40,338 nucleotides of DNA, taken from the UHGV virus genome UHGV-0319604; one strand, written 5' to 3'. Each line of letters begins with the position of its first letter. The stretch's first letter is position 1. The position numbers and the translations under genes are program-made. The notes beneath the pieces were generated by a model. That model was not told where the DNA came from, did not search any database, and saw only the letters and a list, made by a program, of their open reading frames with translations. This document shows positions 5,390 to 14,648 of the stretch, piece by piece. This DNA comes from a virus.

Positions 5390-5468
5390 AGTGCATCCCT
5401 CTTTTTCACCCTTATCGCCGGGTAGGCGGAACGTTTACCTGTCGCACCTGTTGTGCTTCGATGAGTAG

Positions 5469-5539
5469 AGAATACAACATAAAGTAGATGTGTCAACACT
5501 AAAAGTAGAAGTTTAGAAGTGGCGTGCTACTTGTGGTAG
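5469..5539 (-). promoter_or_regulatory. Leftward early promoter (PL-like) with operator palindromes
   Basis: On minus strand, TTGACA (plus 5491-5496), 16-nt spacer, TATTCT (plus 5469-5474); palindromes ACATAAAGTAGATGT (5477-5491) and CTACTTGTGGTAG (5527-5539) share the CTAC/GTAG half-site with the operator at 6108-6120. Confidence 0.4.
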
Positions 5540-5551
5540 TGGTGAAAGGCG

Positions 5552-5591
5552 AAAAAAAACCCGGCATGTGCCGGGTTATTTGGGATTTTTT
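5552..5591. terminator. Rho-independent terminator at the 3' end of the repressor gene (hairpin flanked by A8 and T-rich runs; possibly bidirectional)
   Basis: cccggc-atgt-gccggg hairpin (5560-5575) preceded by aaaaaaaa (5552-5559) and followed by ttatttgggatttttttt; on the minus strand this reads hairpin + T8 directly after the repressor stop codon (5592-5594). Confidence 0.6.
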
Positions 5592-6083
5592 TTACTTCTG
5601 CGGGGTGTTGGCGTACTTCAGAAAGAAATCATAAAGCTGCTTATACCGCATTTCGAACGCCAGTAGCATGTTCTTGGCTTCGACGCTTGGGAACTGCCTA
5701 TACACTCGAAGCAGTCGCTTTTCGTCTTCACTTAAATCTCTGAATTCCGCATCGCTGTCAATGTCAGGATCTGTCGGCGGGAAGCCCGAAAACTCAGTTT
5801 CCGGAAGCTTGATGGGTACACTCTCGCCTTCGCCATAATCAAGCCATGCCGCTTGGACATTTAGCCAGTCAGCTATCTTTTGCAGTTTCTCATCGCGTGG
5901 CTTAGCCGTGCCCAGCGTATAACGACGAGCCATTTCGTATGTGACATCGCAAGCCTGGCTTAAATCCTTTACGGAACGGCGCTGTCTGCGCATTTCTTCG
6001 GTCAGCCGGTTAGCGAAATCCTGATGTTTATTCGCTTTTTCTACCATAGGTAGAAGAGTAAGGCACGGCGCGTTCATAGTCAT
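5592..6083 (-). CDS. Prophage repressor (CI-like; HTH N-terminal domain, no S24 LexA-like peptidase domain; RacR-like)
   Basis: 163-aa ORF; N-terminal HTH-type segment (VKDLSQACDVTYEMARRYTLGTAKP); divergent from a cro-like gene with shared operator region; C-terminal ~80 aa shows no Ser/Lys peptidase motifs. Confidence 0.7.
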   Translation of the reverse strand: MTMNAPCLTLLPMVEKANKHQDFANRLTEEMRRQRRSVKDLSQACDVTYEMARRYTLGTAKPRDEKLQKIADWLNVQAAWLDYGEGESVPIKLPETEFSGFPPTDPDIDSDAEFRDLSEDEKRLLRVYRQFPSVEAKNMLLAFEMRYKQLYDFFLKYANTPQK

Positions 6084-6092
6084 TTCTATTTT

Positions 6093-6126
6093 TCGTAGTT
6101 GTATTTTCTACTTTATGTAGTATATT
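6093..6126 (+). promoter_or_regulatory. Rightward early promoter (PR-like) with operator palindrome CTACTTTATGTAG
   Basis: TTGTAT (6099-6104), 16-nt spacer, TATATT (6121-6126); palindrome CTAC-N5-GTAG at 6108-6120 in the spacer; located in the 72-bp gap between divergent repressor and cro-like genes. Confidence 0.4.
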
Positions 6127-6155
6127 GCAGTCATCGACTCATTCAGGAGAACACG

Positions 6156-6425
6156 ATGACTACTTCATACAAGAACATAACGGAAAAGGCGGTGAGGTCG
6201 ATTGGTTCGGTTTCGGCCGTCGCCCGCAAATTCAACTTTAAGTCCTCACAGTCAGTAGCAAACTGGATTATCCGAAACCGAGTTCCAAGTGAGCGAGTGA
6301 TAAAGCTCTGTGAATTTGGCGGTTGGACTGTCACCCCGCATGAGTTACGTCCGGATTTGCATCCAACCCCTACCAGCGGAATTCCTGTTCAGGATATCCC
6401 ACGTGCGCAGAGGGAGTCTGAGTGA
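6156..6425 (+). CDS. Cro-like DNA-binding protein (YdaS family)
   Basis: Start ATG 6156 with SD CAGGAGA; small HTH protein (SVSAVARKFNFKSSQSVANWI) ending ...TPHELRPDLHP, resembling YdaS-type Cro proteins; divergent from repressor. Confidence 0.6.
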   Translation: MTTSYKNITEKAVRSIGSVSAVARKFNFKSSQSVANWIIRNRVPSERVIKLCEFGGWTVTPHELRPDLHPTPTSGIPVQDIPRAQRESE

Positions 6426-6874
6426 TGGAAATCAAAAAACTGGCATGTGAGCTGGAGTCCTGGGCGCAGGAAAAGGGCTGGAAGACGGTGACGCAGCTGA
6501 TAACCCCGCATCACTTTGGTGATCTGCTTCAGTCACTGGATGACGTTTCGGATCCGGACGAGTACGCGCGGCGGCTGCACAACAACAAGCAGATTATTCA
6601 GCGTGCGTTCCGCAACGATACACCTAACTACCTGAAACAGGCTGAAGCTCTGAGCTATGCCATCCGTACCGCGATTGATAACGAACTGGCGCAGAAGGAC
6701 TGCATGCACTACCGGGCGGCCAGGGTTAACAAAGAGTGTATTGAAGCCACCAATGCTGTCTTCACAGGCAAGCCGCAACCGGTAATCCGACGCGAGACTC
6801 TGGAAGCGATCGATGCGCTGGCGCAGATGGCTGGCGTGAAAGTCCAAATTATGCACTGCCATCGCGCAGCTTAA
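6425..6874 (+). CDS. YdaT-like regulatory protein (CII position)
   Basis: ORF immediately after the cro-like gene (start overlaps its stop, TGATGG); size and position match ydaS-ydaT pairs of Rac-like prophages. Family assignment from memory. Confidence 0.4.
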   Translation: MEIKKLACELESWAQEKGWKTVTQLITPHHFGDLLQSLDDVSDPDEYARRLHNNKQIIQRAFRNDTPNYLKQAEALSYAIRTAIDNELAQKDCMHYRAARVNKECIEATNAVFTGKPQPVIRRETLEAIDALAQMAGVKVQIMHCHRAA

Positions 6875-6890
6875 CGGTCTGGAGGCAACT

Positions 6891-7154
6891 ATGCGTACTT
6901 CTCAGGAATTAGCGAGCGCACTGGCAGAGCGCATGAAAAACGCGATGAAGACCCGACCCGCTCAGGAGCCAGTGGATCGCCGCGGTGAAATCATTCCAGG
7001 GAAGCAATACCGCGACGAACGCGGGCGCATGGTTACAGTTTTGCGTGCATCCCAGCTCCGCGTGTCATATCGCCGGGAGGGGTACACCGGCGTCAGTGAA
7101 ACAGGGCGCCGTGAGTTTGAAATGAAGTTCACCGAGGTGAAAAGTGAGTCTTGA
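6891..7154 (+). CDS. Hypothetical small protein (87 aa)
   Basis: ORF in track with ATG start; between ydaT-like and replication genes. Confidence 0.4.
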   Translation: MRTSQELASALAERMKNAMKTRPAQEPVDRRGEIIPGKQYRDERGRMVTVLRASQLRVSYRREGYTGVSETGRREFEMKFTEVKSES

Positions 7155-8178
7155 TGCCATGCGCTGGGCCAAAAAGGTCAAAACAGGGCGATCGTCTGCA
7201 AAGTCGGTCCTTACCTGGCTGGCTGATATGTGCGGAGCCGACTTAACGACATACCCGTCAATTGCCGCTCTGTCAGAAGCTACTGAGCTAGACAAAAAAA
7301 CAGTTCAGGCAAGCCTGCAGCATCTGATCGCTATGGGATTTATCCAGGACACTGGAGAACGTCGCGGGCGCACAAAACAAATCCCTGTCTACAAATTAAT
7401 CGGGGTGGAGGAAAGCATTGCAGATTCTGAACACACCCAAAAACGGGAACATTACCAAAAACGGGGTCGTTCAAAGGGAACCGAAAACGGGAGTGTTTCA
7501 GAAAACGAACCCAAAAACGGTGCTGTTAAAAAGGGTGAAACGATCCCGTTTTTTCCGTCAAACGATCCCAAAAACGGGATACGGAATCCCCCAGAGGAAT
7601 CTAAAGATCTAAACCCCACACATAGCGCGCGAGGGGAACTGGTTGGATCAGTCAGTGAAAGACCGGTTCCGGAATACCCTGGTCAGCCAGGCACGTTTTT
7701 CCCCGCCTCTCAGTTGCTCGGGAAATTTCCGATGAGCAAGGAGTGGAAACCATCTGCGGACTTTCGCAAACAGGCGAACCTCTGGGGGCGCCCTGTGCCT
7801 GAGAAACTAACTCCCGATGATTTACGCGCTGCACATGCCTGCTTTGTCGATTACTGGATCTCTGAGGGCAAGGCATTCAACCAGACGCAGTGGGAGCAAA
7901 AATTTGCTCTCCACCTGCAGAACACAAAGCCAACAAAACCGCGAGGTAATTCTCATGCAGGACTGGACCCAAACTCCACAGCAAACGCTGCTGTACAACG
8001 AGCGCGCGCAGCACGTGCAGAACAATTACGAGCTCGAGGAGAAGGCGTGGAAATTCTGGGAACTCATGCTGGAAATTTACTCCACCCGCTGGGAGACCAA
8101 AAACGGATCGGCTCCGTCGGACCTATGGATTGCGCAGATTGGGAGTTTGACCAGCGCCCAGACGACGAGCGTCTGTAA
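7144..8178 (+). CDS. Replication initiation protein (O-like: N-terminal HTH domain plus DnaT-like C-terminal region)
   Basis: N-terminal MRWAKKVKTGRSSAKSVLTWLADMCGADLTTYPSIAALSEATELDKKTVQASLQHLIAMGFI is a typical phage replication-protein HTH; followed by a low-complexity linker and a conserved C-terminal region. Last ~75 codons overlap the next gene out of frame. Confidence 0.6.
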   Translation: MSLDAMRWAKKVKTGRSSAKSVLTWLADMCGADLTTYPSIAALSEATELDKKTVQASLQHLIAMGFIQDTGERRGRTKQIPVYKLIGVEESIADSEHTQKREHYQKRGRSKGTENGSVSENEPKNGAVKKGETIPFFPSNDPKNGIRNPPEESKDLNPTHSARGELVGSVSERPVPEYPGQPGTFFPASQLLGKFPMSKEWKPSADFRKQANLWGRPVPEKLTPDDLRAAHACFVDYWISEGKAFNQTQWEQKFALHLQNTKPTKPRGNSHAGLDPNSTANAAVQRARAARAEQLRARGEGVEILGTHAGNLLHPLGDQKRIGSVGPMDCADWEFDQRPDDERL

Positions 8179-8605
8179 TGCGCTGGTGGCGCGCTGTAAA
8201 GCAGGTAATTCCTGGCCGCCGGATCTGGCTGAATTCGTGACGCTGGTGGCGGACATCAGCGGTAACGCTCTTGGGCTAAGAACGGCAGACGTGATGGCGG
8301 AATACAAGCGCTGGCGCAACGAGTCTTACCGCTATGACAGCTCAGAGGTATTTCCGTGGCGTCATCCGGTTTTGTATCAGATTTGCACCGAAATGCGACG
8401 CTCCGGTGTTGAGCGTCAAATGACCCAGACCGAACTGGAAGCACTCGCCGCCTCGCAGCTGGCGAAGTGGGAAAAACATTTGGCGGACGGGCATCCGATC
8501 CCTCCGGTGAGAAAACAAATTGCCGCGCCACGCCATGCTCCAGGACCGACCCCCGCGCAATTGCTTAAAGCGCAGGCCGAAGCAGCAAAATTAAACCGTA
8601 TGTGA
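7955..8605 (+). CDS. Replication protein P-like (helicase loader)
   Basis: Start ATG 7955 with SD GAGG; motifs WPPDLAEFVTLV, FPWRHPVLYQICTEMRR and ELEALAASQLAKWEKHLADGHPIPP align by eye with lambda P (PSPGQFVAWCRE, YPWKSNAHYWLVTNLYQNMR, ELRRKAADELVHMTARINRGEAIPEP) as recalled. Confidence 0.55.
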   Translation: MQDWTQTPQQTLLYNERAQHVQNNYELEEKAWKFWELMLEIYSTRWETKNGSAPSDLWIAQIGSLTSAQTTSVCNALVARCKAGNSWPPDLAEFVTLVADISGNALGLRTADVMAEYKRWRNESYRYDSSEVFPWRHPVLYQICTEMRRSGVERQMTQTELEALAASQLAKWEKHLADGHPIPPVRKQIAAPRHAPGPTPAQLLKAQAEAAKLNRM

Positions 8606-8612
8606 ACAGGAG

Positions 8613-9302
8613 ATGATTATGGAAACCGTACTGGATGCACTGAAAGCCATGAAAAAAGCGACATATCGCGAGGTTGCCGCCCGTCTTGATATCGAACCAG
8701 TAGAAGCGCTGAACATGCTGCGCGAGCACAAACAGCAGGGTTTGTGTGATTTCTTCGATGGGGCATGGTCAGTCGGTACCGCGAAAGAGCAGGCCAGGGA
8801 ACTGGCAAAAGCGCCAGCTGTGGCGCCAGTGCATCAGTCACCGCGTCTGAAAGGTGAGGAACCAGCACCGGTTGATGCTGAGGCCGTCCGCCAGATGCTC
8901 GGCAAGAACGGAGCTATGACCACCGCGGCACTGGCCGCAGCTGTAAACCGTAATGCCCGCGGCATGGTCTCAGTGATGCTGGCGTTTGAGCGCCAGGGTG
9001 TTGTTATCAAAAACGGCCTGGGGAAGGGCGTTACATGGTCTCTCCCTGTAACTGGCCAGACTGAATCAGACAGCACTGAAGCGGTACAACCTGAGCCAGG
9101 CAGTAAATCCCTGAATGAAATTATTGGGGATATTCCTGCGTTCACCGCCCGCCCTGATGACCTGATTATTCCGTCATCGCGCTTTATTTCGAACGAAATC
9201 CGCCGCACAAAAGCGAAGCTGTCAAACCTGCAGCGTCTTCAGGGTGCCGTTCGGGAGCTGCGTCGCCATAAACATCTGCTGGCAGGTATCAGCGATGAGT
9301 GA
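8613..9302 (+). CDS. Hypothetical protein (229 aa) with two winged-helix-like segments
   Basis: ORF with SD AGGAG; two internally similar helical segments (ATYREVAARLDIEPVEALNMLREHKQQGL and AMTTAALAAAVNRNARGMVSVMLAFERQGVVIKNG). Confidence 0.45.
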   Translation: MIMETVLDALKAMKKATYREVAARLDIEPVEALNMLREHKQQGLCDFFDGAWSVGTAKEQARELAKAPAVAPVHQSPRLKGEEPAPVDAEAVRQMLGKNGAMTTAALAAAVNRNARGMVSVMLAFERQGVVIKNGLGKGVTWSLPVTGQTESDSTEAVQPEPGSKSLNEIIGDIPAFTARPDDLIIPSSRFISNEIRRTKAKLSNLQRLQGAVRELRRHKHLLAGISDE

Positions 9303-9525
9303 TTTACCAAAATGCCCTGACTGCGGCCAGTCACCATCGATAAAGGTCCGTAGCCGGGGGATGAACTGGGGTTCTGCAGAAATTCGTTGTTCAAACGGAT
9401 GCTCTGCCTGGCGGGTGGGATTTTCGTTCCCATCCGGCGGTGAGACGGCAGCCCGTAAAGAACTTGAAGATAAATGGCAAAAGCTGGTGGGAGGGCTTAA
9501 CGATGCCAAGACCAAAAACGCATGA
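9295..9525 (+). CDS. Small zinc-ribbon protein (CxxC ... CxxxC)
   Basis: Start ATG 9295 overlapping upstream stop; PKCPDCGQ ... CSNGCSAW cysteine pairs. Confidence 0.4.
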   Translation: MSDLPKCPDCGQSPSIKVRSRGMNWGSAEIRCSNGCSAWRVGFSFPSGGETAARKELEDKWQKLVGGLNDAKTKNA

Positions 9526-9970
9526 CGAGCGCACCAGGATTATCAATCGGATTATCGATCTGGTGAAAGAACATGGGCGCATCACTACGAAAGATGTCGT
9601 TGCGATGTTCGATCTGCATCGCACAACCGCTGAGAAATATCTCCGCACCGCGATAGAGCAGGGAGGCCTTGTTCGCCACGGTCGCTGCGGTACGTTCGGC
9701 GATGTTGGTCCTGTTGGCCCACTAAAGCATCTGTCGAAAGAAGCTCTTGAAGCAGCAGCCGAACCTAATGATCTCAGTGAGTGGGCCGATATGCAGTTCT
9801 TGTTATGGGATGCCCAGCGCCGCGCTGGTATCAGCGATGGTGAAATCACTGCAGCGATGGAAGAAAAGCTAAAGGTGAATATGGCGCGACAGTGGCCTGA
9901 ACCGAAGGACGGAGAACCACGTCTGCATATCAAGACAGCCCCGTTGCAGGAGGTGAAACAGTGTACCTGA
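9503..9970 (+). CDS. Hypothetical protein with N-terminal winged-helix-like domain
   Basis: Start ATG 9503 after GGGAGGG; TRIINRIIDLVKEHGRITTKDVVAMFDLHRTTAEKYLRTAIEQGGLV. Confidence 0.4.
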   Translation: MPRPKTHDERTRIINRIIDLVKEHGRITTKDVVAMFDLHRTTAEKYLRTAIEQGGLVRHGRCGTFGDVGPVGPLKHLSKEALEAAAEPNDLSEWADMQFLLWDAQRRAGISDGEITAAMEEKLKVNMARQWPEPKDGEPRLHIKTAPLQEVKQCT

Positions 9971-10050
9971 TGGAGCTGTTATCAGGCGCAGTCTGGCTGG
10001 TAGTTTTAATCGTGCTGGTGGTGCTGGCTCTGAGAAGAATTGATTACTGA
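9970..10050 (+). CDS. Candidate small hydrophobic peptide (26 aa, MELLSGAVWLVVLIVLVVLALRRIDY)
   Basis: ATG overlaps upstream stop (TGATG); single predicted TM helix then RR; followed 12 nt later by a strong terminator. Below the 60-aa track cutoff. Confidence 0.3.
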   Translation: MELLSGAVWLVVLIVLVVLALRRIDY

Positions 10051-10061
10051 TTAAGCACTTA

Positions 10062-10081
10062 CCCGCTTCGGCGGGTTTTTT
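10062..10081 (+). terminator. Rho-independent terminator ending the early-right operon
   Basis: cccgc-ttcg-gcggg hairpin followed by tttttt. Confidence 0.6.
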
Positions 10082-10146
10082 GCCCTAGGCCAAAGCCCTT
10101 TAACATTTCGTGCTGTTAAACCGTTGATCAATTCCATGTGTGAGTG

Positions 10147-10166
10147 TACTGTATAAATATACAGTA
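10147..10166. promoter_or_regulatory. LexA box (SOS operator), perfect palindrome TACTGTATAAATATACAGTA
   Basis: Matches the CTGT-N8-ACAG LexA consensus on both half-sites; sits 20 nt upstream of the ATG at 10187 and overlaps a TATAAAT -10-like element. Confidence 0.8.
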
Positions 10167-10186
10167 ACATTGTGGAGGCGATCACC

Positions 10187-10510
10187 ATGGGTTTTCCATC
10201 ACCAGCAGCAGACTACGCAGAGCAAACCCTCTCAATTACCAGTATCTGCGGTTATGACAGCAACTGCCGCACCATCGAAACCTCTTCCGGTTACGCAATC
10301 ATCAACATTGCCAGAAAGGCGAAGATTGGCGACACGGTTCTCATTTCCTTTTGTGGAAAGCTGGACTTCGCCTCCGTTCAGGGGAAAGCACTCATCACGC
10401 CTGACGGAGAGGCGATTGAAGGTGATGCGCTGGACGATGCGACCGTTCTTGGAGTTGTTACATACCTTCTGAACAGCGTTACCGACACAGACGACAGGCC
10501 AGTGATATAG
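10187..10510 (+). CDS. UmuD'-like S24-fold protein lacking the catalytic Ser/Lys dyad (pseudo-peptidase), LexA-regulated
   Basis: SD GGAGG 7 nt upstream; begins MGFPSPAADYAEQ, matching the UmuD segment immediately after its cleavage site (CGFPSPAADYVEQ); C-terminal GDTVLISFCGKLDFA...ATVLGVVTYLL aligns with UmuD GDIVIAAVDGEFTVK...LDVFGVVIHVV, but the GDSM Ser position reads GYAI and the Lys position is Ala/Ser. UmuD sequence is from memory. Confidence 0.6.
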   Translation: MGFPSPAADYAEQTLSITSICGYDSNCRTIETSSGYAIINIARKAKIGDTVLISFCGKLDFASVQGKALITPDGEAIEGDALDDATVLGVVTYLLNSVTDTDDRPVI

Positions 10511-10556
10511 CAGAGCGTGCATGATTCCTGTGCATAAAGAGCCGATCGGTTACACA

Positions 10557-10578
10557 GATCAATTACGGTTAATTGATC
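10557..10578. repeat. Perfect inverted repeat GATCAATT-acggtt-AATTGATC (two GATC sites)
   Basis: Seen directly; 8-bp arms, 6-nt spacer, in the noncoding gap downstream of the UmuD'-like gene. Confidence 0.5.
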
Positions 10579-10695
10579 TATCTAACCTATTAGACGTTCA
10601 TGGCGATGGCTGCTTTAGTTACGTTCAGCGCGCAGGGAGAAAAGGGCCGCCCCCCGATTAGTCGGGGATGACTGAATTGAATAGGATTTTTCGTT

Positions 10696-10863
10696 ATGAA
10701 TGAGCAAGAATTAATCGCTGCCGTTCGCCCTGCTGGACGTTATGAGGTAGTGAGCCGGGAGGATGGCTCCTTTGTTGTAATCCCTGTACCTGCCGAAGCA
10801 ATACTCATCACCAGGGAAGCACTCAGACAATGCCTTGAGCGCTTCCGCAACCCTGACAACTGA
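10696..10863 (+). CDS. Possible small ORF (55 aa), no clear RBS
   Basis: ATG..TGA ORF MNEQELIAAVRPAGRYEVVSREDGSFVVIPVPAEAILITREALRQCLERFRNPDN; coding status uncertain. Confidence 0.25.
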   Translation: MNEQELIAAVRPAGRYEVVSREDGSFVVIPVPAEAILITREALRQCLERFRNPDN

Positions 10864-11002
10864 TTTATAATAATCAAGCTGGCCTGAACAACCAGCGCCT
10901 GTCGCACCATCACCGGAGAAAAGTGATGGCGCAAAGAACTACCCAGAATTATTCACACCGCCCATTCGCGCGCGGTGTTTCTGCTTATGCTGGTGATCCA
11001 GC

Positions 11003-11299
11003 ATGAAGAAAGCAGATAGCCTCCATCTTTCACGTGTGGCCGCGCTGGGCTGCATCGTGTGCAGAAACCAGAACTTGGGCGAGACGCCTGCGGAAATTCA
11101 CCATATCCGAACCGGTCAGGGCACCAGTCAACGTGCTGACCATCGGAAATCAATTCCCCTGTGCCATATGCACCACCGCAACGGCGGTTACGGTGTCGCG
11201 ATTCATGCTGGCCGCCGCGCCTGGGAAATGAAGTACGGCACTGAAGCTGAACTGCTGGTGCAGGTTCTCTATTTGCTGGGAGAGCCTGCCGATGAGTAA
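11003..11299 (+). CDS. Small HNH-motif zinc-binding protein (Ref/DUF1364-like)
   Basis: CIVCRNQ ... EIHHIR ... CHMHH pattern (CxxC, HH, CHxHH) typical of small phage HNH-like proteins. Confidence 0.45.
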   Translation: MKKADSLHLSRVAALGCIVCRNQNLGETPAEIHHIRTGQGTSQRADHRKSIPLCHMHHRNGGYGVAIHAGRRAWEMKYGTEAELLVQVLYLLGEPADE

Positions 11300-12953
11300 G
11301 CCAGTCAGTTACGGCTCAGTGTGCAGCGGCATCGAGGCCGCCAGCGTGGCATGGCATTGTTTGGGCTGGCAGCCAGCATGGTTCGCTGAGATAGAAAAAT
11401 TCCCCTCTGCTGTTCTGGCGTACCGCTGGCCGGACGTAAGCAATCTGGGTGATATGACGCAAATCCCCGCGGCAATCCGTGCCGGAAAAATCGAAGCGCC
11501 TGATGTGCTGGTGGGGGGCACCCCTTGCCAGGCGTTCAGCGTTGCGGGTTTACGTAATGGGCTGGCTGACGAACGCGGCCAGTTAACTTTGGCTTTTGTG
11601 GAGCTGGTTAATGCTATCGATGAACTACGCAGAGAACAGGGAAAAACTCCCGTCATCGTCGTCTGGGAAAACGTCCCCGGCGTATTCAGCAGCAAAGATA
11701 ACGCTTTCGGATGTTTTCTTGCAGGGCTTGCCGGCGAAAGCTGCGCGCTGGAATCACCAGGGAAGCGATGGTCAAACGCTGGTTATGTGCTGGGACCAGA
11801 AAGAGCTATTGCCTGGCGAGTGCTCGACGCTCAATTTTTCGGAGTGGCCCAACGACGCAGACGTGTGTTTGTTGTCGCAACAGCTCGAGGGGATATCGAT
11901 CCCGCAAAAATTCTTTTTGAGTCCGAAGGCCTGCGCCGGAATTCTCCGCCGCGCAGAAGTTCGCGGGAAGAAGTTGCCGGAACTTTTAAGGCTCGCGCTA
12001 ATTCAGGTGGCTGGGGACAAGATGTAGAACTTGCCGCAGGTGGCTATATGCAAGTTGTTGTTGGTAGTCACTGGGATAATCCATTGAACCCACACCCAAC
12101 ACTAAATCAGTCATTCAACACTGGTGGTATCGGTGCGAGTAACCAGGAATTATTCAGTCAGCGCGGAAGCGGGATTGTCGGAACGTATGTAAACACTAGC
12201 CGCACACTTTTGGGAAAACCTAACTGCAGCATGGCTGAAGACTTGGAAACTTTTGCCATACATGGAACCCAGGATCCGGATACTCTTCACGATATGGCAC
12301 ATGCCCTGGGGCGCAATCACGGGCAGAAAAACGCGGTTATTGCATTCAGTTCGAAAGATAGCGGCCATGATGCAGCCAGCGACATATCACCAACGCTTCG
12401 CGCAGGGAATAGCAGCAACAGCAATCAGAACGCTGGCGCACCGCCAGCAATAGCTTACGGCATTCCAGGAAACTGGATAGGCCGCGCTCCGCAAAACGGA
12501 GGAAATGCAGTAGAGCCTATGCATGATGTGTCTCCATGTCTGACCGTTGCGGATTGTCACGGCGTTGCATATGCCTTTAAGGCGGGGCAGGGTGCAAAAG
12601 CTAACGGCATAGGATACGCAGCCGAACAAGCCCCAACACTGACAAGCGCAAATAGCGGGAGCAATCAGGCTCCTGCAATCATGCAAAACATGGCCGTTCG
12701 CCGTCTGACTCCTGTCGAGTGCGAACGTCTGCAGGGCTTCCCAGATAACCACACCCTGATCCCCACACAAAAACGTAAGCAGCTCACCGCTGAAGAATAC
12801 GCCTACCTGCGCCACCACCGGCCAGAACTGACTGCAGAACAGGCTTACCGCCTGGCCGCTGATGGACCGCGCTATAAAGCGATCGGAAACTCAATGGCCG
12901 TACCGGTTATGCGGTGGATTGGTTCCCGCATACAGGAGGCGCTGCGTGCATAA
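11292..12953 (+). CDS. DNA (cytosine-5)-methyltransferase, orphan (no adjacent restriction gene), with long low-complexity target-recognition region
   Basis: C5-MTase motifs: GSVCSGIEAAS (motif I-like), GGTPCQAFSVAG (PCQ motif IV), ENV (motif VI), RRRVFVVA (motif VIII), RLTPVECERLQGFPDNH and AIGNSMAVPV (motifs IX/X). Confidence 0.85.
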   Translation: MSKPVSYGSVCSGIEAASVAWHCLGWQPAWFAEIEKFPSAVLAYRWPDVSNLGDMTQIPAAIRAGKIEAPDVLVGGTPCQAFSVAGLRNGLADERGQLTLAFVELVNAIDELRREQGKTPVIVVWENVPGVFSSKDNAFGCFLAGLAGESCALESPGKRWSNAGYVLGPERAIAWRVLDAQFFGVAQRRRRVFVVATARGDIDPAKILFESEGLRRNSPPRRSSREEVAGTFKARANSGGWGQDVELAAGGYMQVVVGSHWDNPLNPHPTLNQSFNTGGIGASNQELFSQRGSGIVGTYVNTSRTLLGKPNCSMAEDLETFAIHGTQDPDTLHDMAHALGRNHGQKNAVIAFSSKDSGHDAASDISPTLRAGNSSNSNQNAGAPPAIAYGIPGNWIGRAPQNGGNAVEPMHDVSPCLTVADCHGVAYAFKAGQGAKANGIGYAAEQAPTLTSANSGSNQAPAIMQNMAVRRLTPVECERLQGFPDNHTLIPTQKRKQLTAEEYAYLRHHRPELTAEQAYRLAADGPRYKAIGNSMAVPVMRWIGSRIQEALRA

Positions 12954-13302
12954 ATACATCATTACCCCAGTCGGAAAACCCCGCATGACCCGGGCTGATA
13001 AGTGGAAACAGCGCCCGCCGGTGATGCGCTATCGCATGTTCTGCGATGAAGCTAGGCTGCATGGAATCCAGGTGCCGGAGAGCGGCGCCCATATCACTTT
13101 CGTTTTGCCGATGCCGCAGAGCTGGAGCAAGAAAAAACGCGCAGCTATGGACGGCCAGCCACACCAGCAAAAGCCTGATCTGGACAACTTAACAAAATCG
13201 CTACTGGATGCCTTGTTTGAGGATGATTCCCACATTTGGGACGCCCGGACATCAAAAGTATGGGGCGAAACCGGAATGATAATTATCGAGGACATGAAAT
13301 GA
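12946..13302 (+). CDS. RusA-like Holliday junction resolvase
   Basis: GTG start after SD AGGAGG (12934-12939), overlapping the MTase stop; motifs PVGKPRMTRADKW and KPDLDNLTKSLLDALFEDDSHIWD resemble the RusA DLDN region. Confidence 0.55.
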   Translation: MHKYIITPVGKPRMTRADKWKQRPPVMRYRMFCDEARLHGIQVPESGAHITFVLPMPQSWSKKKRAAMDGQPHQQKPDLDNLTKSLLDALFEDDSHIWDARTSKVWGETGMIIIEDMK

Positions 13303-13904
13303 CACCACGCCAGAGACGCCAGTATTTTGAAGGGCTGGGAAAAACAGCAATGGCACCACGTAAGAGCTGGCTGGGGAAAAGTATTCTCCTGAATGATGTC
13401 CAGTCCGGTTGGATTAAATCTCTACTTACCGTGTGGGGCGAATGTGTTCGCGGCGGAACTGCCCCGGCGAAACCGTGTGGGCATTCGTGCTGGCAAGTGA
13501 TCAGGGGGAAGAACTGGTCAGATAAAGCGCTTGAACGTTTTACTGCAGCACTGAACCAGGCAAGGGAGGAGGGTTACCGCGGCGAACAGGCAATGCGGCG
13601 GGCACGCTCGATACTCTGGCCTGAACCATCGGCCAGCGTGATTGACGAGGCTATGAGTAATGATGATGCTGAGTTCATGGAGGACGTGGTGCTGCAGGCG
13701 TTTGATTTGAAGGATCCGGTTTATATCGTCGGGCGCCAGTATTACACCACCCGAAAAAAAATATCGGACATCACCAGAGATCTGCAGAGTATGGCGCCAT
13801 GGCTTACGGATAACGAGGCCAGAAAGCGGGTGCGCTGGTGCCTGGAGATATTCAGGGCAAAGGTTTTTCTGTCGGCGCGGAATGCCCTTAAAGAAAATTC
13901 ATGA
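13299..13904 (+). CDS. Putative late-gene antiterminator (Q-like)
   Basis: Position after RusA (ATGA overlap) and immediately before a promoter + short leader + terminator and the lysis cassette; Cys/His-containing ~200-aa protein. Assignment is mainly by synteny. Confidence 0.45.
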   Translation: MTPRQRRQYFEGLGKTAMAPRKSWLGKSILLNDVQSGWIKSLLTVWGECVRGGTAPAKPCGHSCWQVIRGKNWSDKALERFTAALNQAREEGYRGEQAMRRARSILWPEPSASVIDEAMSNDDAEFMEDVVLQAFDLKDPVYIVGRQYYTTRKKISDITRDLQSMAPWLTDNEARKRVRWCLEIFRAKVFLSARNALKENS

Positions 13905-13946
13905 AAATCATCTTTTAACAAAAAGTGCTATTTGTGCGATGAAACA

Positions 13947-13974
13947 TTGAAAACGGGCCAGAAAATCAGATAAT
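13947..13974 (+). promoter_or_regulatory. Candidate late promoter (PR'-like)
   Basis: TTGAAA (13947-13952), 16-nt spacer, GATAAT (13969-13974), in the 340-bp gap downstream of the Q-like gene. Confidence 0.4.
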
Positions 13975-14043
13975 CCATTCATGCTTGGCAGAGCTGCGCC
14001 ACGATGGCGGCGATGTAAAGCGACAATTTGAAAAAACTCTAAA

Positions 14044-14064
14044 CCCCGCCAGCCGGGGTTTTTT
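14044..14064 (+). terminator. Rho-independent terminator ~70 nt downstream of the late promoter (tR'-like; candidate Q antitermination target)
   Basis: ccccg-ccagc-cgggg hairpin followed by tttttt. Confidence 0.55.
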
Positions 14065-14170
14065 GTTATCCGGCGATACGACAGGGGTATTCGCGAAGGT
14101 GCATTGCACCAGTACCCCTGTCATATCGCCGATCTCACCTGAATTATTCAATCCAAACATCTTCTTTGAG

Positions 14171-14193
14171 GGCTGCCATCCGGCGGCCTTTTT
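14171..14193 (+). terminator. Second weaker hairpin + T-tract in the late leader
   Basis: ggctgcc ... ggcggcc imperfect stem (one G-U pair) followed by ttttt. Confidence 0.3.
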
Positions 14194-14243
14194 ATTTCCC
14201 CTCAATTTTTCTGAGAGGATCCACAGCAATAAGAGGGGGCTAA

Positions 14244-14648
14244 ATGTCCGCAGAACCAATAACTGCAACGGTAACGGCGGGCGTGGCTGCTGGTACTACC
14301 GGAGTCACATTCGCCACGCTTTTCCCAGAGGCTACGCCTGCGGTGATGGTCTGCTCCCTCGCTGGGGCGGCGCTCTATATCCTCAGCTCTGAGGATCACA
14401 AAATCTGGAAACAGATACTCTTTGCGCTCATTTCCTTTATCGGTGGCATTTACTGTGCCAGTACTGCTTCAGAAATTATCGCCGCCATTATCAACGCCGG
14501 ACTGAATCAGCTTAGCCCGCCAGTCACTATCAAGGTATCGCCCGCGATTGGCGCACTGGCGGCTTCAACGGTTTCCGTGACAATTCTGCTGCGCATTCTT
14601 GCCCGCTCTAAAACAGGCAATCTGCCCGGCGTGAAGGGGGAAGAATGA
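14244..14648 (+). CDS. Putative holin (multi-TM membrane protein)
   Basis: 134-aa ORF with several hydrophobic helices, first gene after the late leader and upstream of the endolysin. Confidence 0.5.
   Translation: MSAEPITATVTAGVAAGTTGVTFATLFPEATPAVMVCSLAGAALYILSSEDHKIWKQILFALISFIGGIYCASTASEIIAAIINAGLNQLSPPVTIKVSPAIGALAASTVSVTILLRILARSKTGNLPGVKGEE

What the first reader, a model, noticed from the sequence alone, without database searches (positions are those of the whole stretch)
9970..10081. Unannotated 26-aa hydrophobic peptide ORF with its own terminator, just upstream of the LexA-controlled gene
MELLSGAVWLVVLIVLVVLALRRIDY is a single TM helix with a basic tail, the architecture of type I toxins and small membrane regulators (TisB, Hok and Ldr are known examples of the class). 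Its ATG overlaps the upstream stop (TGATG) and a strong terminator follows within 12 nt. It falls below the 60-aa ORF cutoff, so automated annotation would miss it.
Basis: partly seen in the sequence, partly recalled or inferred. Interest (0 to 1): 0.45.

Follow-up and report, generated by a model that had tools for sequence, protein, structure and literature searches.

The report
Conserved 29-residue prophage membrane peptide gene
The tiny open reading frame is very probably a real, unannotated gene for a 29-residue membrane-spanning peptide at the end of a prophage early operon, kept by selection in many related prophages, but it does not look like a toxin-antitoxin toxin and its function is unknown.

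Summary

**It is a real coding gene, on comparative evidence.**
- Relatives gave 35 distinct intact DNA versions (25 peptides), all 29 codons long with no indels.
- Variable sites by codon position are 13/8/22.
- 35 of 71 variants are synonymous in this frame, against 12 and 11 in the other two frames.
- Replacements are hydrophobic-for-hydrophobic. L3, G9, W12 and the RRIDY tail never change.
- Six broken copies exist, including one lineage with several lesions.

**The start is probably GTG 9961 (29 aa), not ATG 9970.**
- GGAGGTGA lies at ideal spacing upstream of the GTG.
- One relative has ATG at that position. Another has lost the internal ATG.

**Context.**
- The upstream neighbour belongs to about ten or more unrelated families.
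- The terminator, LexA promoter and UmuD'-like gene always follow the ORF.

**Not a type I toxin.**
- It has no promoter or 5' UTR of its own.
- No antisense promoter and no family match were found.

Best reading: the last, translationally coupled cistron of the early-right operon, encoding a single-pass inner-membrane peptide of a new, unnamed family. Translation and function are untested.

The parts
9949..9956 (+). Shine-Dalgarno sequence GGAGGTGA, inside the last codons of the upstream gene. Its GGAGG core ends 7 nt before GTG 9961.
   Evidence: Read from the sequence. An (A/G)(A/G)GG core is kept at this position in every intact relative, although the DNA further upstream is unrelated.
9961..10050 (+). 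Small gene, probably 29 codons plus stop: (M)YLMELLSGAVWLVVLIVLVVLALRRIDY. There is an alternative internal start at ATG 9970 (26 aa).
- 35 intact DNA versions, with no indels.
- Variable sites by codon position are 13/8/22.
- 35 synonymous versus 36 non-synonymous variants in this frame, against 12/59 and 11/60 in the other frames.
- pN/pS is 0.37.
- Codon 1 is GTG in 34 versions and ATG in 1. Codon 4 is ATG in 34 and ATA in 1.
9976..10032 (+). Predicted transmembrane helix, residues L6-L24. It includes invariant G9 and W12, and is followed by R25 R26.
   Evidence: Kyte-Doolittle 19-residue mean of 3.04, the highest of 378 small ORFs in the window. All replacements in relatives stay hydrophobic or small. 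The topology (N-terminus out, C-terminus in) is inferred from the positive-inside rule.
10033..10047 (+). Invariant C-terminal tail RRIDY. Codons AGA AGA ATT (10033-10041) never change, not even synonymously.
   Evidence: codon table. The reason for the nucleotide-level invariance is unexplained.
10061..10081 (+). Intrinsic terminator that ends the early-right operon: ACCCGC-TTCG-GCGGGT plus T6.
   Evidence: It is the only clean intergenic terminator with a full T-run on the + strand between about 6100 and 14000. In relatives the stem is invariant and the loop varies. It is kept in copies whose ORF has decayed.
9503..9970 (+). Upstream gene (DUF977 fused to a dATP/dGTP pyrophosphohydrolase domain). 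Its last 10 nt overlap the small gene.
   Evidence: In relatives this position is taken by about ten or more unrelated genes, all ending ..QEVKxC(T/I).
10124..10166 (+). SOS promoter of the next transcription unit: -35 TTGATC (10124-10129), a 17-nt spacer, and the LexA box 10147-10166 over the -10 region.
   Evidence: Read from the sequence. It is always 67 or 98-100 nt after the small ORF's stop.
10187..10510 (+). LexA-controlled 107-aa UmuD'-like gene. It is the constant downstream partner of the small ORF but not part of its transcription unit.
   Evidence: phrog_3469. In 101 of 104 ORF-bearing loci it starts 105-140 nt after the ORF's stop.

Best explanation
Window 9961-10050 is a genuine but unannotated gene for a 29-residue single-pass inner-membrane peptide.

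**How it is made.** It is the last cistron of the prophage's early-right operon, which carries cro/cII-like genes, O/P-like replication genes and nin-like genes. Ribosomes start at GTG 9961 using the GGAGGTGA that sits in the tail of the preceding gene. The 10-nt overlap with that gene gives translational coupling. The operon then ends at the terminator 10 nt after the stop.

**When it is made (inferred).** The peptide would be produced when the early-right promoter is derepressed, that is during lytic growth or induction, not from the LexA promoter.

**What it does (inferred).** It inserts with a short acidic N-terminus outside and the RRIDY tail in the cytoplasm. The invariant G9 and W12 and the small residues S8 and A10 suggest a defined helix-helix contact. 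I therefore favour a peptide that binds and modulates a host or phage membrane protein over a pore-forming toxin.

**Status of each step.** Shown: the coding-type conservation, the conserved Shine-Dalgarno sequence and start, the operon position, and the linkage to the SOS module. Inferred: translation itself, membrane topology, timing and function.
For: **Coding signature.** The set found without reference to the ORF gave 22 distinct DNA versions. Variable sites by codon position were 13/7/21. pN/pS was 0.37, against 0.60 and 2.25 in the other frames, which carry stops in every sequence. The full set of 35 versions gave 13/8/22 by codon position and 35 synonymous versus 36 non-synonymous variants, against 12/59 and 11/60 in the other frames. 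The synonymous excess holds for transitions (p=0.01) and transversions (p=0.01) separately. G9 is invariant while using all four Gly codons. One stop changed from TGA to TAA in place.

**Start signals.** A Shine-Dalgarno core is kept upstream of the GTG in every context. L120/L197 carry ATG instead of GTG. L149/L184 carry ATA instead of the internal ATG.

**Module boundary.** The upstream genes are unrelated: pyrophosphohydrolase, SAM methyltransferase, DUF3850 and several unknowns. All share the tail QEVKxCT, which is encoded by the junction.

**Decay when not maintained.** There are two nonsense copies, one +1 frameshift copy, and one lineage with GTG changed to GTA plus several further lesions. 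That lineage still keeps the terminator.

**Hydrophobicity.** It is the most hydrophobic small ORF in the window.

**No RNA explanation.** The fold z-score is -0.16. No Rfam family reaches threshold.

**Operon position.** The only clean + strand terminator after the immunity region is the one behind this ORF.
Against: - There is no direct evidence of translation.
- All evidence comes from one tight clade, at least 76% amino-acid identity to the window peptide. The sequences are not independent and the counts overstate the number of events.
- About one in six distinct versions is broken, so the gene is dispensable.
- No homologue with a known function was found, so the proposed mode of action rests on sequence features only.
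- The peptide could not be searched in the large protein databases because it is shorter than 40 aa.
- The start codon is inferred. Termination-reinitiation at the TGATG overlap could still give the 26-aa form.
- The nucleotide-level invariance of AGAAGAATT hints at an additional, non-protein constraint.
Confidence: 0.78

Rival explanations
1. Type I toxin. The peptide is a membrane-depolarising toxin whose translation is held in check by an antisense or overlapping small RNA, as with TisB, Hok, Ldr or DinQ.
For: Its size, single hydrophobic helix and short charged tail fit the general description of type I toxins (PMC12648545, read). It lies in a prophage and next to an SOS promoter.
Against: - It has no promoter or 5' leader of its own. 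The Shine-Dalgarno sequence and start lie within the preceding coding sequence in every context.
- No promoter-like site lies on the minus strand across 9000-11200 or 5400-14500 near the ORF.
- Short-form relatives leave no unassigned space between the terminator and the forward promoter.
- No Pfam, NCBIfam or Rfam match was found.
- The helix has no polar or charged lining residues.
- The LexA box lies beyond the terminator and serves the next gene.
Confidence: 0.05
2. Not a gene. The stretch is conserved only because it is a recently shared mosaic junction or part of the terminator unit, possibly a 3'-end-derived small RNA, and the open frame is incidental.
For: - The clade is tight.
- The 3' part, AGAAGAATTGAYTAYTGA plus spacer plus terminator, is almost invariant at the nucleotide level.
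- The left end coincides with a recombination junction.
- There is a weak isrK-like Rfam hit over the terminator, at 17.5 bits against a threshold of 50.
Against: - The transmembrane part does vary, and it varies three times more at third codon positions than at second.
- The synonymous excess is seen only in this frame.
- Length, start and stop are kept.
- The other frames are closed.
- The fold is no more stable than shuffled sequence.
- Relatives that keep the same terminator without the ORF have unrelated sequence right up to about 10 nt before the stem.
Confidence: 0.08
3. The act of translation matters, not the product. The ORF brings ribosomes to within 10 nt of the terminator hairpin, or stalls them at the tandem rare AGA codons. 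This would tune termination and read-through into the SOS-controlled operon.
For: - The stop lies a fixed 10 nt from the stem.
- The AGA AGA codons are invariant.
- The ORF is linked to the terminator and SOS promoter in 101 of 104 loci.
Against: - The amino-acid sequence itself is under purifying selection, with conservative replacements along the whole helix. A pure ribosome-delivery ORF would not need that.
- No alternative antiterminator fold was found.
- The terminator is retained intact in lineages where the ORF has decayed.
- In the many relatives with no such ORF, other genes stop 9-25 nt from the same terminator.
Confidence: 0.07
4. Same gene, but the product is the 26-residue form. 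It would start at ATG 9970 by termination-reinitiation at the TGATG overlap.
For: The overlapping stop-start TGATG is a classic coupling arrangement. The ATG is present in 34 of 35 intact versions. IMG gene calls list the 26-aa form.
Against: - No Shine-Dalgarno sequence lies within 5-10 nt of the ATG.
- GGAGGTGA is at ideal spacing for GTG 9961.
- Codon 1 is always a start codon in intact copies (GTG or ATG) and is GTA in the decayed lineage.
- One otherwise intact lineage has ATA at codon 4.
- TAC to TAT at codon 2 is silent in this frame but changes the upstream protein's last residue from T to I.
Confidence: 0.2

Closest known systems
Bacterial small membrane proteins that bind larger membrane proteins (AcrZ, MgtS, KdpF, CydX, PmrR; reviewed in PMC12648545)
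   Same: Fewer than 50 residues, one very hydrophobic helix, a short charged tail, missed by annotation. Small residues and a Trp near one end of the helix could make a packing face.
   Different: There is no sequence relationship: a PDB profile search found nothing and Pfam and NCBIfam gave no hit. It is phage-borne and sits at the end of an early lytic operon. No partner is known.
Type I toxins TisB and DinQ (SOS-regulated) and Hok/Ldr/Ibs/ShoB
   Same: Length (TisB is also 29 aa, from my own knowledge), a single helix, and proximity to a LexA box.
   Different: It is not transcribed from the LexA promoter. It has no leader of its own, no antisense RNA locus was found, and it matches no family. 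Its helix lacks charged or polar residues.
Gifsy-type SOS locus of Salmonella prophages (Lemire et al. 2011, PMC3121763)
   Same: The surrounding architecture is the same. A Rho-independent terminator is followed by a LexA box and a small SOS operon, downstream of the replication genes, in a prophage whose repressor lacks a cleavage domain.
   Different: That paper describes no small ORF in front of the terminator. The first SOS gene here is UmuD'-like rather than dinI-like.
Small early-operon membrane or host-interference peptides of temperate phages (for example lambda CIII and Kil; from my own knowledge)
   Same: Short products of early operons, made only after derepression and dispensable for growth.
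   Different: There is no sequence similarity. Those peptides are not classical single-pass transmembrane peptides, and they lie in the leftward operon.

Membership tests
Type I toxin-antitoxin toxins | Small (<60 aa) hydrophobic peptide with one transmembrane helix | tested here: met
   29 aa. The 19-residue Kyte-Doolittle mean is 3.04, the highest of 378 small ORFs in the window.
Type I toxin-antitoxin toxins | Sequence match to a described toxin family (Hok, Ldr, TisB, Ibs and others) | tested here: not met
   No Pfam hit at E up to 10. In NCBIfam only a meaningless 9.6-bit hit.
Type I toxin-antitoxin toxins | Own promoter and structured 5' leader that restrains translation | tested here: not met
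   The Shine-Dalgarno sequence and start lie inside the 3' end of the preceding gene, which is a different gene in about ten or more contexts.
Type I toxin-antitoxin toxins | Antisense or adjacent small-RNA antitoxin gene | tested here: not met
   No minus-strand promoter-like site lies near the ORF. No Rfam family matched. In short-form relatives the 67 nt after the stop are filled by the terminator and the forward promoter. Caveat: these are consensus scans only, so a weak promoter could be missed.
Type I toxin-antitoxin toxins | Toxicity or membrane depolarisation on expression | not testable with these tools
   This needs an experiment.
Small membrane proteins (translated sORFs of 50 aa or fewer with a transmembrane helix) | Start codon with a ribosome-binding site, and a frame maintained by purifying selection | tested here: met
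   GGAGGTGA lies just upstream of the GTG, with 4 nt between them, and is kept in all contexts. pN/pS is 0.37, with a frame-specific synonymous excess.
Small membrane proteins (translated sORFs of 50 aa or fewer with a transmembrane helix) | Demonstrated translation and membrane localisation | not testable with these tools
   No ribosome-profiling or proteomic data are available here. A literature search on the peptide sequence found nothing.
Small membrane proteins (translated sORFs of 50 aa or fewer with a transmembrane helix) | Homology to a named small-protein family | tested here: not met
   Searches found nothing. Exact-sequence look-up found only unnamed IMG/Logan calls and one spurious 'Ephrin type-A receptor 2' label.
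Leader-peptide attenuator | Alternative antiterminator and terminator RNA structures coupled to translation of the ORF | tested here: not met
   The fold of 9940-10090 is no better than shuffles, with a z-score of -0.16. The terminator persists where the ORF has decayed.
Leader-peptide attenuator | Regulatory codons in the leader | tested here: inconclusive
   The tandem rare AGA AGA codons are invariant in 35 versions. The whole peptide is also conserved, which is atypical for a leader.
Gifsy-type SOS antirepressor locus (context only) | Terminator followed by a LexA box downstream of the replication genes, with a repressor that lacks a cleavage domain | tested here: met
   compared with PMC3121763.
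Gifsy-type SOS antirepressor locus (context only) | A dinI homologue as the first gene, and a demonstrated antirepressor | tested here: not met
   The first gene is UmuD'-like (phrog_3469). Antirepressor activity cannot be tested here.

The most novel reading that the evidence does not exclude
The peptide is a functional partner of the SOS-controlled induction module it always travels with. It would be a membrane-anchored early product that feeds back on prophage induction or on the UmuD'-like/antirepressor operon. The feedback could work through the peptide itself, or through ribosome pausing at the invariant AGA AGA codons just before the insulating terminator. A further possibility is that this young gene was born de novo in front of that terminator.
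Probability: 0.1. Interest if true: 0.6.

Novelty: new member of a known kind. Interest (0 to 1): 0.36.

Why it matters
Small membrane proteins are systematically missed by annotation, and few phage-encoded ones have any evidence behind them. This one has strong comparative support and a clear expression context: the last cistron of the early operon. It also has a well-defined set of natural knock-outs, two nonsense copies, one frameshift copy and one decayed lineage. That makes it a clean candidate for tagging and deletion in an Enterobacteriaceae lysogen.

It also marks a sharp mosaic junction. About ten or more unrelated genes have acquired the same seven-residue tail because the junction lies inside their 3' ends.

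If the peptide modulates a host membrane protein during induction, it would add a new phage-host interface. If it has no phenotype, it remains an ordinary accessory gene.

Tried and rejected
- **Large protein database search of the peptide.** The representative-library search and structure prediction need at least 30 aa, so neither was run.
- **Peptide searches in annotated collections.** tblastn against deposited phages and plasmids found nothing, possibly because of low-complexity masking. blastn of 9940-10200 against complete E. coli genomes and phages matched only the promoter part.
- **Structure and defence libraries.** The PDB profile search and PADLOC found nothing.
- **Literature.** Searches for the peptide sequence and for small ORFs in nin regions found nothing relevant.
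- **Distant paralogues.** A profile HMM against all six-frame segments of about 300 fetched loci found only the one tight family. Scores dropped sharply from 46 bits or more for copies that keep the helix and tail, through 24-32 bits for the decayed copies, to 13 bits or less for everything else.
- **Programmed frameshift fusing the helix to the upstream protein.** Rejected. The overlap has no conserved slippery heptamer (AAACAG, AAAAAG, AAAAAC and GGAAAA variants), and the upstream proteins are unrelated.
- **Overlapping gene on the other strand.** Rejected. No ORF of 20 aa or more crosses 9961-10050 on the minus strand.
- **Host species.** Not resolved. The single genome-contig scan, made with the upstream protein, returned no locus carrying the ORF.

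Full report
**1. What is in the sequence**

The window is a lambdoid-type prophage. It carries:
- a lambda-like integrase at 430-1548 on the minus strand;
- an HTH-only repressor candidate at 5592-6083 on the minus strand;
- YdaS/cro-like and DnaT/lambda-P-like replication genes on the plus strand;
- nin-like genes (RecA-dependent nuclease, C5 methylase, RusA);
- ST64B/SfV-like structural genes.

At the coordinates given, the ORF ATG 9970 to TGA 10050 encodes MELLSGAVWLVVLIVLVVLALRRIDY. Its ATG shares a base with the stop of the upstream gene. That gene (9503-9970) is a DUF977 plus dATP/dGTP pyrophosphohydrolase fusion.

A canonical intrinsic terminator follows 10 nt after the stop. It is ACCCGC-TTCG-GCGGGT plus T6, at 10061-10081.

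Next comes a promoter with a near-perfect LexA box at 10147-10166. Then comes a 107-aa gene that really starts at ATG 10187.

The same frame also opens at GTG 9961, with GGAGGTGA at 9949-9956.

Among the window's 378 ORFs of 20-50 aa, this is the most hydrophobic by a clear margin.

**2. Related sequences**

Three kinds of search brought in relatives:
- Exact-protein look-ups and protein-based scans with the upstream and the downstream gene.
- A terminator pattern.
- A degenerate pattern for the ORF itself, in IMG/VR (31 contigs) and in metagenomes (22 contigs).

The ORF is absent from 5,426 complete E. coli genomes, from deposited phage genomes and from PLSDB plasmids at the sensitivity used.

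No gene was called at this position in the 20 contexts returned with called genes. An exact-sequence look-up shows it has been called only sporadically. IMG lists 26-aa forms, Logan and ENA list 29-aa forms, and one TPA record (DAL27374.1) carries a spurious 'Ephrin type-A receptor 2' name.

**3. Is it coding?**

*Set found without reference to the ORF.* These are the loci found through the neighbouring genes. They gave 25 intact copies and 22 distinct DNA versions.
- Variable sites by codon position are 13/7/21.
- pN/pS is 0.37 in the ORF frame, against 0.60 and 2.25 in the other two frames. Those frames carry stops in every sequence.

*Full set.* With all loci there are 35 distinct intact DNA versions and 25 peptides.
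- All are exactly 29 codons long with no indel.
- 35 of 71 distinct variants are synonymous in this frame, against 12 of 71 and 11 of 71 in the other frames.
- The synonymous excess holds separately for transitions and for transversions, with p about 0.01 each.

*Pattern of replacements.*
- G9 is invariant while using all four glycine codons.
- L3, W12 and R25-R26-I27-D28-Y29 are invariant.
- Every replacement in the helix is hydrophobic or small.
- The stop moved from TGA to TAA once, without shifting position.

*RNA controls.* The RNA fold of the region is no more stable than shuffled sequence, with a z-score of -0.16. No Rfam family reaches threshold.

This is the signature of a translated, selected peptide, not of an RNA element or a chance frame.

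*Broken copies.* Six broken versions exist:
- two nonsense copies (L279 and L221);
- one +1 frameshift, seen in L178, L224 and L275;
- three versions from one decayed lineage (L210, L213, L216, with L302 like L216), in which GTG became GTA and several further lesions accumulated, while the terminator stayed intact.

The gene is therefore dispensable, and it decays when it is no longer maintained.

**4. Start codon and expression**

Similarity among relatives begins about 25 nt upstream of the GTG, at GCAGGAGGTGAAA. Further upstream the DNA is unrelated.

An (A/G)(A/G)GG Shine-Dalgarno core is kept in all intact copies.

Evidence on the two candidate starts:

| Position | Intact copies | Decayed lineage |
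|---|---|---|
| Codon 1 (9961) | GTG in 34 distinct versions, ATG in 1 | GTA |
| Codon 4 (9970) | ATG in 34, ATA in 1 otherwise intact lineage | ATG retained |

No Shine-Dalgarno sequence precedes the internal ATG at a usable distance.

I therefore take GTG 9961 as the start, giving MYLMELLSGAVWLVVLIVLVVLALRRIDY. The 10-nt overlap with the preceding gene would give translational coupling. Reinitiation at the TGATG overlap cannot be excluded.

The terminator behind the ORF is the only clean plus-strand terminator between the immunity region and about 14 kb. The ORF is therefore the last cistron of the early-right operon.

**5. Genetic context**

*Upstream.* The gene in front of the ORF belongs to about ten or more unrelated families. 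They include pyrophosphohydrolase variants, a SAM methyltransferase, a DUF3850 protein and several proteins with no Pfam family. All of them end with the same tail..QEVK(Q/K/T)C(T/I), because the junction lies inside their 3' ends.

*Downstream.* The arrangement is constant.
- In 101 of 104 ORF-bearing loci the UmuD'-like gene starts 105-140 nt after the ORF's stop.
- The exceptions are one locus where the contig ends, one with an insertion that puts the gene 1,484 nt away, and one locus (L271) with no downstream-gene hit in the 2.9 kb held after the ORF. In L202, from the same contig, the gene is preceded by IS66-like transposase sequence.

*The reverse does not hold.*
- About 294 IMG/VR loci carry the UmuD'-like gene, and only about 31 carry the ORF.
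- Among ten contexts encoding the identical downstream protein, five have the intact ORF, one has the decayed copy and four have none.

The ORF is thus an optional left-hand addition to a terminator, SOS promoter and gene module.

That module has the architecture described for Gifsy prophages: a terminator, then a LexA box, then an SOS operon with an antirepressor, downstream of the replication genes (PMC3121763, read). The HTH-only repressor here fits that scheme.

**6. What it is not**

*Type I toxin.* Only the generic feature, a small hydrophobic peptide, is met.
- There is no own promoter or leader.
- There is no antisense promoter-like site.
- Short-form relatives leave no room for one.
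- There is no family match.
- The LexA box belongs to the next transcription unit.

*Leader-peptide attenuator.* This is unlikely.
- The product itself is under selection.
- No alternative fold exists.
- The terminator survives where the ORF has decayed.

*Programmed frameshift.* Fusing the helix to the upstream protein is unlikely. No slippery site is conserved.

**7. Most likely mechanism**

*Shown:*
- a selected coding frame;
- conserved translation signals;
- the operon-terminal position;
- extreme hydrophobicity.

*Inferred:*
- The peptide is made from the early-right transcript after derepression.
- It inserts with the N-terminus out and the C-terminus in, by the positive-inside rule. 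The RR pair lies on the cytoplasmic side and E5 on the outside.
- It acts through a specific helix-helix contact, suggested by S8, G9, A10 and W12. Disrupting the bilayer seems less likely, because the helix has no polar lining residues.

The target and the phenotype are unknown.

**8. Unexplained**

Codons 25-27 (AGA AGA ATT, 10033-10041) never change, not even synonymously. Of the other 24 codons that could vary silently, 21 do. This could reflect ribosome pausing at tandem rare codons just before the terminator, an RNA-level function, or chance in a related sample.

**9. Verdict**

- The 'type I toxin' part is not supported.
- It is a new, unnamed member of the broad class of small membrane proteins, carried by prophages of Enterobacteriaceae-type hosts.
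- It is of moderate interest until a function is shown.

Noticed in passing
window 10187-10510: The LexA-controlled 107-aa protein begins MGFPSPAADYAEQ. To my knowledge this is where UmuD' begins after the Cys24/Gly25 cut of UmuD. Only residues 1-21 and 2-40 hit the HumD/UmuD NCBIfam models, below cut-off. The whole protein matches phrog_3469 'UmuD-like', and Pfam detects no S24 peptidase domain. It looks like a mimic of the UmuD' N-terminal arm on a different body. The exact protein is widespread, listed in 134 index blocks.
   Followed up: partly
window 10100-10119: An inverted repeat, TTAACA-N8-TGTTAA, lies just upstream of the -35 (TTGATC, 10124-10129) of the SOS promoter. It is conserved in the 'long-form' promoters of many relatives, including those without the small ORF, and absent from 'short-form' promoters. 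It may be a second operator.
   Followed up: no
window 5592-6083 (-) and 10696-10863 (+): The repressor candidate has only an HTH_3 domain and no S24 cleavage domain. Induction may therefore depend on a LexA-controlled antirepressor, as in Gifsy prophages (PMC3121763). The 55-aa second gene of the SOS operon (phrog_34610, unknown function) is a candidate.
   Followed up: no
window 9946-9970 and the same position in L120, L136, L139, L141, L142, L159, L183, L219, L225: About ten or more unrelated upstream genes all end with the tail ..QEVK(Q/K/T)C(T/I). It is encoded by the conserved module junction, which also carries the small gene's Shine-Dalgarno sequence. This is a mosaic recombination boundary lying inside coding sequence.
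   Followed up: yes
window 10033-10041: The tandem rare Arg codons AGA AGA plus ATT are invariant at the nucleotide level in all 35 distinct intact versions, although most other codons vary silently.
   Followed up: partly
L232-L236, 416 to 326 nt upstream of the UmuD'-like gene: A different 29-aa hydrophobic ORF, MSNVA(I/L)GTLGSVAVALINLMAVTVK(R/L)LGH, lies upstream of the same SOS gene in relatives that lack the small ORF studied here.
   Followed up: no
L202 / L271 (IMGVR_UViG_2751185913_000004): In L202 sequence resembling the end of an IS66-family transposase lies directly upstream of the LexA promoter. In L271, from the same contig, the small ORF has no UmuD'-like gene within the 2.9 kb that follow. 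This is the one ORF-bearing locus with room downstream but no such gene.
   Followed up: partly
window 10041-10081: A weak Rfam hit to isrK, the Gifsy-1 Hfq-binding RNA, scores 17.5 bits against a gathering score of 50, with E 0.26. It essentially covers the terminator hairpin and was not taken as evidence.
   Followed up: no
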